A stretch of 64,000 bases of DNA from Eledone cirrhosa. Lineage: Eukaryota. Below the pieces are notes generated by a model. That model saw only the letters and a program-made list of their open reading frames with translations. It made no database searches and was not told the DNA's origin. Below, one piece after another: positions 1,454 through 58,457 of this stretch; position 1 is the stretch's first letter; each line of letters starts with the position of its first letter. The DNA lies in the NCBI GenBank assembly GCA_964016885.1, contig OZ024762.1, positions 6,696,001 to 6,760,000 on the forward strand, read 5' to 3'. The translations under genes were made by a program, and so were the position numbers.

Positions 1454-1784
1454 GTAGCTTCAGTTCACTCAGCTGGACAAAAAGGAGTAGTGCCTGTAAT
1501 TCCCACTGCATGGTGCTGAATCTCCCTGAGACCTACTTCGTTGAGGATGTATGTGTCTGTGGAATGCTCAGACATTTGCCTGTTAATTTCATGAGGAGGC
1601 TGTTCTGTTGATCAAACAACCGGGACACTCATTGCTGGAAGCAACAGAGGTCCAACACATACACATATCATCATCATCAACATTTAATGCCCACTCTTCC
1701 ATGTTGACATACATTAGACATATATATATATATATATACACAATGATATTAAATAAATGGAAACTATATTTATAAAACGATATT

Positions 1785-1847
1785 TATTTTATTATATATA
1801 TTTCAAGGGTACCAAGACACATTGGTACGCTTTCCTCAGATAAAATA
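1785..1847 (-). ncRNA. Antisense copy of the same hammerhead (left arm of the palindrome)
   Basis: Reverse complement of 1987-2049. Confidence 0.75.
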
Positions 1848-1986
1848 CAAAGTTTGTTTTATAAATAGAGACATACCCATGAAAATCATACCTTATCGGT
1901 TGGATATTCTCTGGATAGTCCAAAGAATATCCAACCGATAAGGTATGATTTTCATGGGTATGTCTCTATTTATAAAACAAACTTTG

Positions 1987-2049
1987 TATTTTATCTGAGG
2001 AAAGCGTACCAATGTGTCTTGGTACCCTTGAAATATATATAATAAAATA
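1987..2049 (+). ncRNA. Minimal type I hammerhead ribozyme (intact core)
   Basis: tattttat-CTGAGGA-aagcgtaccaa/tgtgtc/ttggtaccctt-GAAA-tatata-TA-ataaaata: 8-bp stem I, 11-position stem II with 1 mismatch, palindromic stem III. Confidence 0.8.
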
Positions 2050-2929
2050 AATATGGTTTTATAAATATAGTTTCCATTTATTTAATATCATTGAATATTT
2101 ACTCCACTAACTTGTTGAGTGCTCTAAATCAGTTATATACATTTATATTCGTCGGACTTCCAACAAATTAAATACCCCTTCTACTTATATATATATACAT
2201 ATATATATATATATATATATATATATATATATATATATGATGTTGAACAATGAAATAAATAAGACAAGGTTTAATAGTTTTATATATACACACACTTATA
2301 TACACATCAGTAAAGAGTAATTTATCATGAAATGTAGAGACAAGCACATTTATTATAACAATATTTACTACTAGATTTACTACAAACATCATTGAATTGA
2401 ATGGAATTAAAGAGGTAGAGATTTAAATCTAGAAGTTTCTCAAAGACCTGATAAGAAAAGACAGTCTTATCACTGTTGTGATGTTTTCATGCTTATGTGG
2501 ATTAGACAAGGCTTTTTTCTCAATCTTAAAACATGGAGTTATGGCAGTTCTGTCTACTGAATGATGTGTTGTTGTTGTAAGCCTGGAATTATGGTAATTC
2601 TGTTTACTGAATGATGTGGTATTGTTTCTTGTTTAAAGAGTCTGATGAACATATTGATACTGGAGTCAGGTTTATTACACAAATGTGAACCTCCAGTCAA
2701 TCATCTGTGAAACTGGTCAATAATCAATAAACACATGTGAAACTTTGACATGTTTATCTTAATATTATGCACTTCTACTTGTTTTTTTTTATAAAACAAA
2801 CTTGGTTGAGATCTTCTGGCATAATTTTCAAGCAATGTCTTTCAGAAATATGGTAATGAAAAAGTTAAAGCGTTTGCATTCATCTAAAAATCCTCCATAA
2901 AAATTTTATGTAAGAACCTATTTAAAGGG

Positions 2930-3400
2930 AACCATACACTGAACGCCTTGCTTCCCTGGGCATGGATACATTGAAGTTCAGACGCCTGGCAACTAACTTG
3001 GTAAACACCCAAAAAATTATTAACCATCTTGCCAACATCAACCCTGAGCACCTTTTTGATCTCCATGTGTCTAACACACGTGGGCATGCCTACAAAGTCA
3101 GGAAACACAGCACAGCTCCCATGACTTTCAGAAACATTTCTTCACACTCAGAGTAGCTGAAGCATGGAACAAACTACCTGCCTCAGTTGTTAGCTGCTGA
3201 GACACAGCATCCTTTAAAGCCTTCATGCTTCCTAAAATTTGCCAACACTACACCTGATATCCCCACACACGCACACATGTATATCATGACTTATACACTG
3301 TTCATTTTCCTGACATTTGTATATTATTCTATGTACTATACATGCACCTTTGATGAGTTGTAGTGCACCTGAATACTGTACACAATAATTTCATTATCAT
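2930..3400 (+). mobile_element. CR1/L2-group LINE 3' end (degenerate ORF2 C-terminus and 3' UTR)
   Basis: YTERLASLGMDTLKFRR...NTRGHAYK, then frameshifted FFTLRVAEAWNKLP motif. Confidence 0.8.
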
Positions 3401-3414
3401 TCAATGGAAGTTTG

Positions 3415-55152: not shown

Positions 55153-55570
55153 AGGACAGTGAATTGGCAGTATCAGTAGAGGGGCGGACGCCATGCTTTT
55201 CAGCATAGAGTTACGGCCCTTTATGGTCTGAGTTCAAATCCCGCCGAGGTTAACTTTGCCTTTCATCCTTACGGGGTTGATAAAATAAAGTACCAGTAAT
55301 ACACTGAGATAATTGCTGGCCTTGTGTCAAAATGTAGAAACAATTGTTAAAAGTAAGATAAGGACAGTAAATTGGAAGTATTGGTAGAGTACCAGACATG
55401 ATTTGTGGCATATCCTTTTACGTTACGAGTTCAAATCCCACTAAGGTTAGCTTTTCCTTCCATCCTTAGAGGGGTTGATAAAATAAAGTACCAGTAACAC
55501 ACTGGGTCCTTCTAATCAACTTTCCCCCTCCACCAAAATTGTTGGCCTTGTGCCTAAATCAGAAACCGTT
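55153..55570 (+). mobile_element. Two tandem Deu/Nin-like SINEs
   Basis: Match to 5300-5488 and 15439-15654. Confidence 0.85.
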
Positions 55571-55610
55571 ATCAAAAGTAAGAGAATATTACAATGACAA
55601 CATTACATAG

Positions 55611-55845
55611 ACCACAGTTGCTATTCCTCTCTCCAGTCTCCCTCCCTCCCTCCAAGTTATTGAACATTACATTAAACCACAGTTGCTATTCCTCTCTCCA
55701 GTCTTCCTCCCTCCCTCCAAGTTATTGAACATTACATTAAACCACAGTTGCTATTCCTCTCTCCAGTCTTCCTCCCTCCCTCCAAGTTATTGAACATTAC
55801 ATTAAACCACAGTTGCTATTCCTCTCTCCAGTCTCCCTCCCTCCA
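55611..55845. repeat. 65-bp tandem repeat, ~3.6 copies
   Basis: accacagttgctattcctctctccagtc... Confidence 0.9.
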
Positions 55846-57481
55846 ATAAAACTTCTAAACCAATTTGTGAAAACAGTTGCTGGCAAGAAAAAAACAAAAA
55901 TGAAAAAATACAATCTATATACATGAAAAGTCTGTGTAATTATTTGTTTCTATATTTATGCCAGCATAAAATTTGAGTGAATTAAAAATATTGAATATAT
56001 AAAAAAAAAAAAATTTATTCAACAAACTTTGGAAACCATTGGTAACAAAACAACAGAATAATTGTCATTTACAACACACACATACACATACATACACAGA
56101 TATACATACAGTGACAAACATACACACACATACAGTGTCAAACATACACACATACAGTGTCAAACATACACACACACAGTGACAAACACACACACACACC
56201 ACAGTGACAAACATACAATCATTGTGTTGTTTTGTACTTTACAAGACTGACTTGCTAATGTGGTTTCATGTGGCTTGTTACTTCAAATGTTTATAGTATC
56301 TTTACTAGTTGACAGATCATTGTGAAAATTTGCTGTAAAGACAATTTTTAATGAAAATACTCAGTGCTGCTTTGTACTTTACAAGACTGACTTGCTAATG
56401 TGGTTTCATGTGGCTTGTTACTTCAAATGTTTAGGAGGCAGACTGTTGTGAAATTTTGCTACATTAGAGTAGACTTTAATTCTTAATGAGATGTACTCAT
56501 AGCGTTGTTGTTGTTTTTTCCTTTTACAAGACTGTCTTATTAATGTGGTTTCATGTGATACAGGACATTTAAGAGTGAAAGGAAACCAGACAATAGCAAC
56601 TGATAATATCTAATTTGAATACAGTAATTGCTGCTATAGAAATGTAAATGAGCAGAGTTTTACAATAAAACAACACTGGAACAAATAATTAAGATATAAT
56701 TAAAATATAGAAATAAAATCCCTCTGAAAATTTACACATTTATTTCATGTTGTGACATAAGTAATGTTATTGAGAGAGAGGGGTGAAAGAGATGGTGTGT
56801 GAGAGAGAGAGGGTGAGAGAGAGAAGAGTGAGAGAAAGAGGGGGTGAGAGAGATAGTGTGTGAAAGAGAGAGGGGGGTGAGAGAGATAGTGTGAGAGAGA
56901 GAGAGGGGTGAGAGAGATAGTGTGAGAGAGAGAGAGGGGTGAGAGATAGTGTGAGAGAGGGGTGAGAGAGGGGTGAGAGAGATAGCGTGTGAGAGAGAGG
57001 GGTGAGAGAGAGATAGTGTGTGAGAGAGGGGTGAGAGAGATAGTGTGTGAGAGAGGGGTGAGAGAGAGATAGTGTGAGAGAGAGAGGGGTGAGAGAGAGA
57101 GAGACAGAGTGTTAGATAGAGAGTGAGGACACAGGAGAGAGTGTGAGCAAGAAAGAGGGAAAGACAGTGAGAAAGGGAAAGAGGGATAGAAAGAGATATA
57201 TGTATACATACATATATATATATAGACAGGGGGGGGGGGAGAAACAGAGTCAGAGAAAGAGAGAGAGAAAAAGGCAGATCTATATAGAGATAGAGAAAAA
57301 AATGTATATATATACATATACACACACACACACACACATATACACACACACACATATATACACACACATGCACACACACACACACATATATATATATAGA
57401 GAGAGAGAGCGAGGGAAAGAGAGAGCGAGAGAGAAAGATATATATAACCCCCCACCCTACTCTCAAGCATGAAACTAATAA

Positions 57482-57600
57482 TAATTGTTTCTACTTTTGG
57501 CACAAGGCCAGCAATTACCCAGTACATTACTGGTACTTTATTTTATCGACCCCGTAAGGATGAAAGGCAAAGTTGACCTCGGCGGGATTTGAACTCAGAA
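57482..57600 (-). mobile_element. Deu/Nin-like SINE 3' half
   Basis: Reverse-complement match to 5370-5488. Confidence 0.85.
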
Positions 57601-58457
57601 TGGCAAGGGTTTTATATTGGTTTTATATTGATTTTATATTGGTTTTATATTGGTTTCAATATAAAACCAATATAAAATTGACTTTGTTAGTTTCAGAAGA
57701 TCTCGTTAAGGGTGAAAGCAGCGATTATTTTCTTAAACTTTAATCTGTTATTGTAATAAATATTTGCTCTACGGTTCTTATACATTTGATATATATTTAT
57801 CCTTATCGAGCCCTCTTTGGATTTTAGTCTTCAAATTTATTATTATTATATATATATATATATATATATATATATAACGAAGGAAATGTGGTAAGGAACC
57901 AGGTGGACCATAACGCACCAAAGTACTCAATACTTGAGGTAGTAGAATTAGCCGTCGAAACGGCTTGAGCTCAGCTGTCGGGGTCTTACTGGTTCCTATA
58001 TAAATATATATATATATATATATAAATATATATCATTTCATTTTACGTCTGCTTTTTCCCTGCTTGCAAATTTAATTTATAATAAATTGGAGTGAAAGCA
58101 ACTGGTGCGTGTGTTTCTTATTGGCAACATGACCCTCCCAAAGCATAACAATATCGGTTTCAACACACGTTTTCAGATAAAGAATCTTGCTAAACAAATT
58201 CAGAAACGAAATATATATATATATATAGAGAGAGAGAGAGAGAGAGAGAGAGAGAGAGAGAGAGAAAGAGAGAGAGAGAGAGAGAGAGAGAGAGAGAGAG
58301 AGAGAGAGAGAGAGAGAGAGAGTTTAGATACATGTCTGCTGCAGTTTAAATTTTAATTAACTTGAGATTATAGCTTGAAGAAGATTCTGTCTTGACTTCA
58401 TTGAAATGTTATCAACCGATAAAAAGACTCTTGTAGCTCTCCCTAAGTCTAACATTC

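What the first reader, a model, noticed from the sequence alone, without database searches (positions are those of the whole stretch)
1741..58211. A guild of distinct (TA)n-associated foldback mini-elements, many with hammerheads
Seen: at least six inserts with largely unrelated sequence share one plan of inverted arms plus a unique tail of roughly 20-140 bp, mostly embedded in TA microsatellite (1741, 5860, 7769, 7995, 16194, 50254). Hammerhead-like motifs occur at about 9 sites (1.8/2.0, 5.9, 8.1, 11.0, 13.8, 14.8/15.1, 32.9, 40.0, 58.0 kb). No RT or endonuclease ORF for them is in the window. Inference: a diverse, probably poorly annotated set of non-autonomous or truncated Penelope-like/retrozyme families that target microsatellites and generate hairpins on insertion.
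Basis: partly seen in the sequence, partly recalled or inferred. Interest (0 to 1): 0.75.

Follow-up and report, generated by a model that had tools for sequence, protein, structure and literature searches.

The report
Penelope-element stumps with twin end hairpins
The hairpin-shaped inserts are real and are cut-short ends of several Penelope-like jumping genes that land in TA repeats, a known kind of insertion; their unusual feature is a small hairpin motif just past the points where copies end, which likely tells the enzyme where to start copying.

Summary
The foldbacks are real, far above chance, and each belongs to a high-copy family. They are not a new class. Five of the six named inserts (1741, 5860, 7769, 7995, 50254) are 5'-truncated ends of coding Penelope-like elements (PLEs) with RT + C-terminal GIY-YIG partners elsewhere in this genome: four Hydra-type, one Neptune-like; the 50254 family has intact ~817-aa ORFs. 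The sixth (16194) is an ORF-less, ~548-nt tandem unit with a full hammerhead, a retrozyme-like parasite. Inverted copy + one-sided tail + (TA)n + minimal hammerheads is published PLE anatomy. Hammerheads hold at family level, but only three window copies keep both core halves and stem I; the 13.8-kb motif is a private mutation. What differs from print: tails of 80-131 nt (published 30-40), a family-wide U4A core variant, and an RCTC...TYGAGY hairpin 4-12 nt past the short end (six families) and the long end (four of four readable), kept by the ORF-less family. This scan found the same PLE reading and hairpin before on other DNA of this genome; I took the twin-hairpin lead from there and re-tested it. 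Function untested.

The parts
1741..1915 (-). Family A inverted, tail-less copy (Hydra-type PLE 3' end), preceded by (TA)n
1916..2184 (+). Family A sense copy with 91-nt tail (2094-2184), followed by (TA)n
1987..2049 (+). Type I minimal hammerhead, palindromic helix III; mirror copy 1785-1847 on the minus strand
2101..2120 (+). ACTC...TTGAGT hairpin 7 nt past the short end of A
5700..6114 (-). Family B (Neptune-like PLE) 3' end with ~59-nt tail; hammerhead 5911-5953 with A9T in this copy
6115..6199 (+). Family B inverted internal segment (fold-back arm)
7766..7945 (-). Family C (Hydra-type) stump: ~86-nt tail 7766-7851, 25-bp inverted arm 7919-7943, TA on both sides
7995..8187 (+). Family D (Hydra-type) fold-back ending at the short end; hammerhead with G12A in this copy
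10985..11133 (+). Family H stump: 3' half hammerhead plus ~80-nt tail into (TA)n
13760..13870 (+). Family I repeat with GAAA half motif; minus-strand CTGATGA is a private mutation
14628..15131 (.). Family G head-to-head pair (minus 14628-14847, plus 14848-15131), hammerheads at 14.8 and 15.1 kb; probably ORF-less ~433-nt unit
16051..16161 (-). Family B tail-only stump between TA runs
16194..16413 (-). Family E inverted, tail-less copy with 3' half of the hammerhead
16420..16710 (+). Family E sense copy with ~91-nt tail; ORF-less ~548-nt retrozyme-like unit; GCTC...TTGAGC hairpin 16624-16656
26254..26323 (+). Family C fragment
32861..32900 (+). Family J minimal hammerhead, G12A in this copy (GAAA in relatives)
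37976..38039 (-). Family C fragment
40044..40150 (+). Family K hammerhead with long stem II, decayed in this copy
50254..50313 (-). Family F inverted, tail-less copy
50323..50508 (+). Family F sense copy (young Hydra-type PLE end), 131-nt family tail; ACTC...TTGAGT hairpin 50387-50467; starts just past the hammerhead cut site
50545..50668 (-). Family H-related stump with tail
57687..57848 (+). Family C sense copy with full hammerhead fold, CAGAAGA (U4A) core, and tail into (TA)n
57876..58000 (.). Family H head-to-head pair: tailed copy (minus) and short-ended copy (plus) with half hammerhead
58068..58211 (+). Family B 3' stump into (TA)n

Best explanation
The inserts are 5'-truncated ends of several Penelope-like retrotransposon families plus at least one ORF-less parasite, each set in (TA)n as a head-to-head pair of one tail-less and one tailed copy, likely made when the element's RT-GIY-YIG protein nicks both strands of the TA repeat and starts two cDNAs from two internal points on its RNA. 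Shown: two fixed 3' ends per family, TA beyond both, variable fold-back centres, arms that share copy-specific variants, coding partners, hammerheads in the end repeat, and in the Hydra-type families an RCTC-stem-TYGAGY hairpin 4-12 nt past each end. Inferred: the hairpins are the protein's docking sites on the RNA and set the two start points (the tail is the stretch between them); both cDNAs stop early near the hammerhead or the RNA's 5' end and join by microhomology; family E keeps both hairpins and borrows a Hydra protein from a tandem or circular RNA.
For: Partners: A, direct end repeats around a broken RT-EN ORF (L091) and inverted tail-less copies around ORF or 3'UTR (L092, L094); F, end repeat ~160 nt before the ATG in 20 of 25 ORF loci where the start was found (30 fetched), intact 817-aa ORF; C, sense EN motifs upstream in 6 of 24; D, 13 of 25; B, sense YVDD in 4 of 24, GIY-YIG and RVT_1 Pfam hits below cut-off. 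Ends: TA after the 3' end in 27/29 A, 21/24 C, 21/23 D, 23/24 F, 19/24 B, 24/28 E, against 6.3% of random window positions. Inverted tail-less copies reaching the short end: 8/29 A, 11/24 C, 10/24 F, 8/23 D; tails 91 (A), 86-91 (C), 131 (F), 59 (B), 88-94 (E, 14 of 17 arms). Centres differ copy to copy. Arm-to-arm distance 2.2% within copies vs 3.8% between, 0 of 2000 permutations. Full hammerhead pattern in 12/17 A, 19/24 B, 14/18 C, 14/23 D, 10/20 E, 11/14 F, 19/19 G copies long enough to hold it. Hairpin past the short end in 45/51 A, 17/20 D, 24/32 E, 13/29 F, 5/31 C, 9/62 H; past the long end in 2/5 A, 1/4 C, 5/10 E, 16/18 F; background 47/20000, 1-10/5000 in shuffled tails. Published anatomy and two-start-site origin of the tail.
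Against: No RNA or biochemical test. B and G have two ends but no such hairpin (0/24, 0/2, 0/13, 0/15), so it is not universal. Some hairpins are weak (1-2 inner pairs past the long ends of A and E; ~100-nt loop in F), part of family C has lost the GAG strand, and the C, F, H denominators include chance matches of short end patterns that I did not clean. Clade calls rest on motifs, not a tree; Pfam found nothing in the F ORF. Only the 40 best-scoring candidates per search were seen, favouring young copies. 109 arm variants are private to one arm against 40 shared, and sharing could also come from gene conversion. In the published in-vitro system RT starts inside an AC-rich stem-loop, not just before a hairpin. 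No coding partner was found for E, G or H.
Confidence: 0.85

Rival explanations
1. A separate class of non-coding fold-back mini-elements (MITE- or retrozyme-like) that copy as whole palindromes.
For: Many family-A copies have nearly the same 430-460-nt palindrome-plus-tail span; 5' ends cluster near the hammerhead in C, D, F; E and G are ORF-less tandem units.
Against: Anchored on the tail alone, most copies have no inverted arm and lengths vary widely; centres are copy-specific; five of six families continue into RT-GIY-YIG ORFs.
Confidence: 0.08
2. The palindromes come from self-priming fold-back of one strand (antisense RNA or cDNA) rather than from two cDNAs started on the two target strands; the hairpins then serve another role, such as endonuclease recognition at DNA level.
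For: Self-priming was proposed for head-to-head PLE junctions (PMC3846280); the D. virilis tail was needed for EN recognition (as cited in PMC11167929); arms are more alike within copies.
Against: Many centres carry gaps, overlaps or filler, and some pairs have no shared arm at all (window 57876-58000); purified PAc extends both strands from two internal sites.
Confidence: 0.25
3. Assembly or sequencing fold-back artefacts at TA microsatellites.
For: Arms of B and F in the window are 100% identical; no long reads could be laid.
Against: Arms of A, D, E differ by 2-4 bases; the outer end of the inverted arm falls at one family-specific position in dozens of loci; opposite-strand joints for E stand in contigs of another run.
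Confidence: 0.02
4. DNA transposons with terminal inverted repeats and a DDE transposase.
For: Inverted repeats and TA flanks.
Against: Ends are asymmetric, arms meet at the centre, and the linked ORFs are RT-GIY-YIG.
Confidence: 0.01

Closest known systems
Hydra clade of C-terminal EN+ Penelope-like elements (Craig et al. 2021, PMC8557442; sections 11 and 15, passages and two supplement look-ups read)
   Same: Single RT-EN ORF with DKT, CxCX5C linker, CxxC and CxH around E and N, no CCHH; (TA)n insertion; hammerheads; inverted 5'-truncated copy with one-sided tail.
   Different: Tails 80-131 nt rather than 30-40; 3' UTRs up to ~1.2 kb; at least five families with about 800-3000 search candidates each; U4A core in family C; twin hairpin not in the passages read. 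The hammerhead listed for Hydra-1_Obim matched none of my 329 loci.
Neptune (or Nematis) clade PLEs
   Same: Family B partner: YVDD RT, CX4CxxC linker, CCHH-type GIY-YIG, minimal hammerhead, TA insertion.
   Different: ~59-nt tail; Neptune versus Nematis not resolved without a tree.
Non-LTR retrozymes (Cervera and de la Pena 2020, PMC7229834, passages; bioRxiv 10.64898/2026.07.22.740005, first of five parts read)
   Same: Family E and probably G: ORF-less, low-GC unit with one type I hammerhead, tail-to-start junctions.
   Different: E is ~548 nt (published 150-450 nt), dispersed as partial tandems and inverted pairs in (TA)n with PLE-type double ends; circular RNA not shown.
Minimal PLE hammerheads (Cervera and de la Pena 2014, PMC4209133, passages)
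   Same: Palindromic helix III; pairs on opposite strands 100-700 bp apart from truncated PLEs, exactly as at 1.8/2.0 and 14.8/15.1 kb.
   Different: E, C and H have long helix III; F and K have ~80-120-nt stem II inserts.
PAc Poseidon element in vitro (Frangieh et al. 2024, PMC11167929, main text read)
   Same: Two internal RT start sites define the tail; both target strands cut and extended; AT-rich targets.
   Different: [quoted passage not shown]

Membership tests
EN+ Penelope-like elements | Single ORF with RT and GIY-YIG endonuclease linked to the repeat | tested here: met
   A, B, C, D, F; not met for E, not found for G, H
EN+ Penelope-like elements | Direct or inverted pseudo-LTRs with 5'-truncated inverted copy | tested here: met
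   L091 direct; L092, L094, L170, L171 inverted
EN+ Penelope-like elements | One-sided tail of 30-40 bp | tested here: inconclusive
   Tail present and fixed per family, but 59-131 nt
EN+ Penelope-like elements | Hammerhead motif in the end repeat | tested here: met
   Seven families by descriptor; Rfam gathering gave no hit on four loci
EN+ Penelope-like elements | RT groups with PLEs in a phylogeny | not tested
   No reference sequences were held
Hydra clade | DKT motif and RWK-like motif | tested here: met
   F: SDKTGN and VRWRA; A: SDKTNN; RWR rather than RWK
Hydra clade | CxCX5C linker; CCHH absent; CxxC and CxH around E and N | tested here: met
   A, C, D, F partners
Hydra clade | (TA)n insertion | tested here: met
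Hydra clade | Short elements (<3 kb) | tested here: not met
   Family A unit L091 spans about 3.85 kb (4300-8152); the paper says 'generally' short
Neptune/Nematis clade (family B) | CX2-5CxxC linker and CCHH endonuclease | tested here: met
   which of the two clades is not resolved
Non-LTR retrozyme (family E) | No coding capacity; tandem unit with type I hammerhead | tested here: met
   Longest ATG ORF 58 aa; own tail precedes the unit start in 26 of 30 loci, two being one locus
Non-LTR retrozyme (family E) | Unit of 150-450 nt | tested here: not met
   ~548 nt
Non-LTR retrozyme (family E) | Expressed as self-cleaved linear and circular RNA | not testable with these tools
   No RNA run could be laid
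TIR DNA transposon / MITE | Symmetric terminal inverted repeats and DDE partner | tested here: not met

The most novel reading that the evidence does not exclude
Hydra-clade PLEs use a paired RNA hairpin (RCTC-stem-TYGAGY) as the docking site that fixes each of their two internal reverse-transcription start points; tail length is simply the spacing of the two hairpins, and ORF-less hammerhead circles such as family E spread by carrying the same pair. This would be the first defined cis-signal for PLE initiation and a direct link between retrozymes and their helper enzyme.
Probability: 0.5. Interest if true: 0.7.

Novelty: new variant of a known kind. Interest (0 to 1): 0.42.

Why it matters
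How Penelope-like elements start copying and why they leave inverted ends with a one-sided tail is still open. This genome offers thousands of young stumps from several families, an intact ~817-aa protein (family F, many identical end copies), a candidate RNA signal and a non-coding passenger that keeps it, so the question can be tested directly. For annotation, these stumps should be filed as PLE ends, not MITEs or miRNA-like hairpins.

Tried and rejected
Rfam: the 150 shown of 227 window hits were miRNA-type hairpin matches below gathering score, none a hammerhead; four loci with full hammerheads gave no hit at gathering, so Rfam misses these variants. A first strict descriptor missed A, C, D, F because of bulged or long stem II or a variant core; family-specific patterns were then used, which are fitted to the families and carry no shuffle control; the strict descriptor gave 1 window hit against a mean of 0.01 in 100 shuffles. 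wrongly dropped distinct A, C, F, B loci as duplicates and was redone; the E row is faulty (end pattern matched elsewhere), so E counts come. Sequencing runs: no RNA holder listed and no long-read run; short reads and contigs hold families A and E but cannot span the palindromes. A family-profile search for the PLE thumb was not possible. The minus-strand hammerhead at 13.8 kb was rejected. One junction of E to an inverted Hydra ORF (L093) is a single case and was not taken as proof of a helper. Paper searches for the hairpin or long tails found no description; most subscription papers and Repbase/Dfam entries were not searchable, bioRxiv supplements are closed, and only parts of the Craig 2021 supplement were seen.
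Full report
Setting. The window is G000:C23:6696001-6760000 of a 3.0-Gb animal genome. It is dense in microsatellites and satellites and holds no PLE ORF by tblastn with three partner proteins.

Observation. All six named inserts are inverted repeats at the stated places; ten shuffles gave one inverted repeat of 30 bp or more in all. I call them A (1741), B (5700-6199), C (7766), D (7995), E (16194) and F (50254); G (14628-15131), H (11.0, 50.6, 57.9 kb), I (13.8), J (32.9) and K (40.0) carry the other hammerhead calls. 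Each searched family is abundant: first-look candidates 1622-2996 (A), 771 (B), 1789 (C), 1617 (D), 1427 (E), 983 (F), 985 (G), 988 (I); these are not copy numbers and only 40 were scored each time.

Anatomy across copies. Anchored on the 3' part, copies end at one or two fixed points and run into TA: 27/29 A, 21/24 C, 21/23 D, 23/24 F, 19/24 B, 24/28 E, against 6.3% of random positions. A minority have an inverted copy whose outer end is the short end: 8/29 A, 11/24 C, 10/24 F, 8/23 D, and 17/28 E had an inverted arm. The stretch between short and long end is fixed per family: 91 nt (A), 86-91 (C, depending on how AT overlap is counted), about 90 (D, E), 131 (F), 59 (B). The fold-back centres differ in nearly every copy. 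In 30 full-length A palindromes (chosen as best matches to the window copy) the two arms of a copy differ by 2.2%, arms of different copies by 3.8% (0 of 2000 permutations); 40 variants are in both arms, 109 in one. So the palindrome is made anew at each insertion and then ages; it is not a read artefact and not a fixed master hairpin.

Partners. Longer A copies run through a ~1.2-kb AT-rich UTR into an ORF with DKT, FDITMG-type, GLYRDD, CNCRIKSNC and C-terminal GIY-YIG motifs, flanked by direct or inverted end repeats. The F end lies about 160 nt before the ATG of an 817-aa ORF of the same type in 20 of 25 loci where the start was found. C and D show the same endonuclease motifs upstream in 6/24 and 13/25 loci. 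These motifs fit the Hydra clade as described in PMC8557442 section 11. B runs into a YVDD RT with CX4CxxC linker and CCHH-type GIY-YIG, Neptune-like. No tree was built. E has no ORF (58 aa at most); its unit start is preceded by its own tail in 26 of 30 loci (two are one locus) and continues 440 nt or more in 28 of 30: a ~548-nt permuted unit. G shows a tail-to-start junction in 3 of 19 loci, a 433-nt spacing at one locus, and no PLE motif nearby.

Hammerheads. Seven families carry a full type I fold in most copies long enough to hold it, usually with a palindromic helix III as described for PLEs (which also reports opposite-strand pairs 100-700 bp apart from truncated PLEs). In the window most copies are damaged or halved. 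Activity is untested; in the published in-vitro system the ribozyme was dispensable for insertion.

What is beyond the known picture. The published tail is 30-40 bp; here it is two to four times longer. Earlier notes of this scan on other pieces of the same genome reached the same PLE reading and pointed to a paired hairpin; I had the PLE reading before seeing them and took the hairpin lead from them. Tested here: RCTC-stem-loop-stem-TYGAGY starts 4-8 nt past the short end in A (45/51 read-through copies), D (17/20), E (24/32), F (13/29), C (5/31), H (9/62), and 6-12 nt past the long end in A (2/5), C (1/4), E (5/10), F (16/18). The inner stems differ between families yet pair (CAG/TTG or CTG, CAGTT/AACTG, AGAAGAA/TTCTTCT, TGTA/TACA, TACT/AGTA, CTA/TAG), and ACTC/GAGT swaps with GCTC/GAGC. 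F's longer tail comes from a larger loop in this hairpin. Background is 47/20000 random points and 1-10/5000 shuffles. B and G lack it. The C, F and H denominators are inflated by chance matches of short patterns. Six paper searches found no description; an octopus repeat annotation lists active Penelope families but has no hammerhead or ribozyme passage (passages only).

Mechanism. From PMC11167929: a PLE protein cuts both strands of AT-rich DNA and starts reverse transcription at two internal RNA sites whose spacing is the tail. Applied here by inference: each nick in (TA)n primes one cDNA, one from each start point, both stop early, often near the hammerhead (5' ends cluster within about 80 nt before the core in A, C, D, F), and they join head to head. 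The hairpins lie on the RNA just 3' of each start, where a bound RT would sit; that role is a hypothesis. The self-priming model remains a rival for the junction.

Verdict. Real, abundant and mostly explained: truncated ends of Hydra-type and Neptune-like PLEs plus retrozyme-like passengers. The long tails and twin hairpin make it a new variant worth a bench test, and the scan has reported this before on other DNA.

Noticed in passing
window 57690-57740; L177-L200: Family C hammerhead has CAGAAGA (U4A) in all 14 copies with the full pattern: a fixed altered core in a young, abundant family.
   Followed up: partly
L145-L169, L221-L250: Family F is very young: 25 of 40 scored end copies are identical over 179 nt and dozens of loci have open frames of 800+ aa; some ORF hits recur at ~6.65-kb spacing (C6:49.53-49.55 Mb, C1:183.74-183.76 Mb), suggesting full-length tandem arrays.
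   Followed up: partly
(window 2020-2090): Reads from a related sample show a far more abundant relative sharing only the hammerhead 3' half to short end of family A, continuing into its own ACTC...GAGT-like tail.
   Followed up: no
family H in loci: 39 of 75 half-hammerhead rows are head-to-head fold-backs centred 10-51 nt before the TAGCCGTCGAAA stem II/core stretch; the few longer copies have degenerate cores (TTGATAA, TTGAGAA).
   Followed up: partly
window 23760-23829: Perfect 34-bp palindrome built from a piece of the abundant SINE-like repeat; no relative among the loci then held.
   Followed up: partly
window 8706-10982, 34068-35191, 41192-45839: Large satellites: 37 copies of a 61-bp SINE-derived unit (98% match), 23 copies of a 48-bp unit, and 4.6 kb of (ACCAC)n.
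   Followed up: no
window 40348-40649 and 52223-52524; 31520-31900: Copies of a tRNA-like-headed SINE (weak Rfam tRNA hits at 40569-40626 and 52246-52303); the repeat recalls the octopus SINEs (from memory, not tested).
   Followed up: no
L170, L223: The F ORF carries a long Asn/Thr/His-rich insert between thumb and endonuclease, like the N-rich inserts described for rotifer Penelopes.
   Followed up: no
loci of all searches: TA runs act as nesting hot spots: family H stumps turned up in many loci fetched for other families (96 blast hits).
   Followed up: partly
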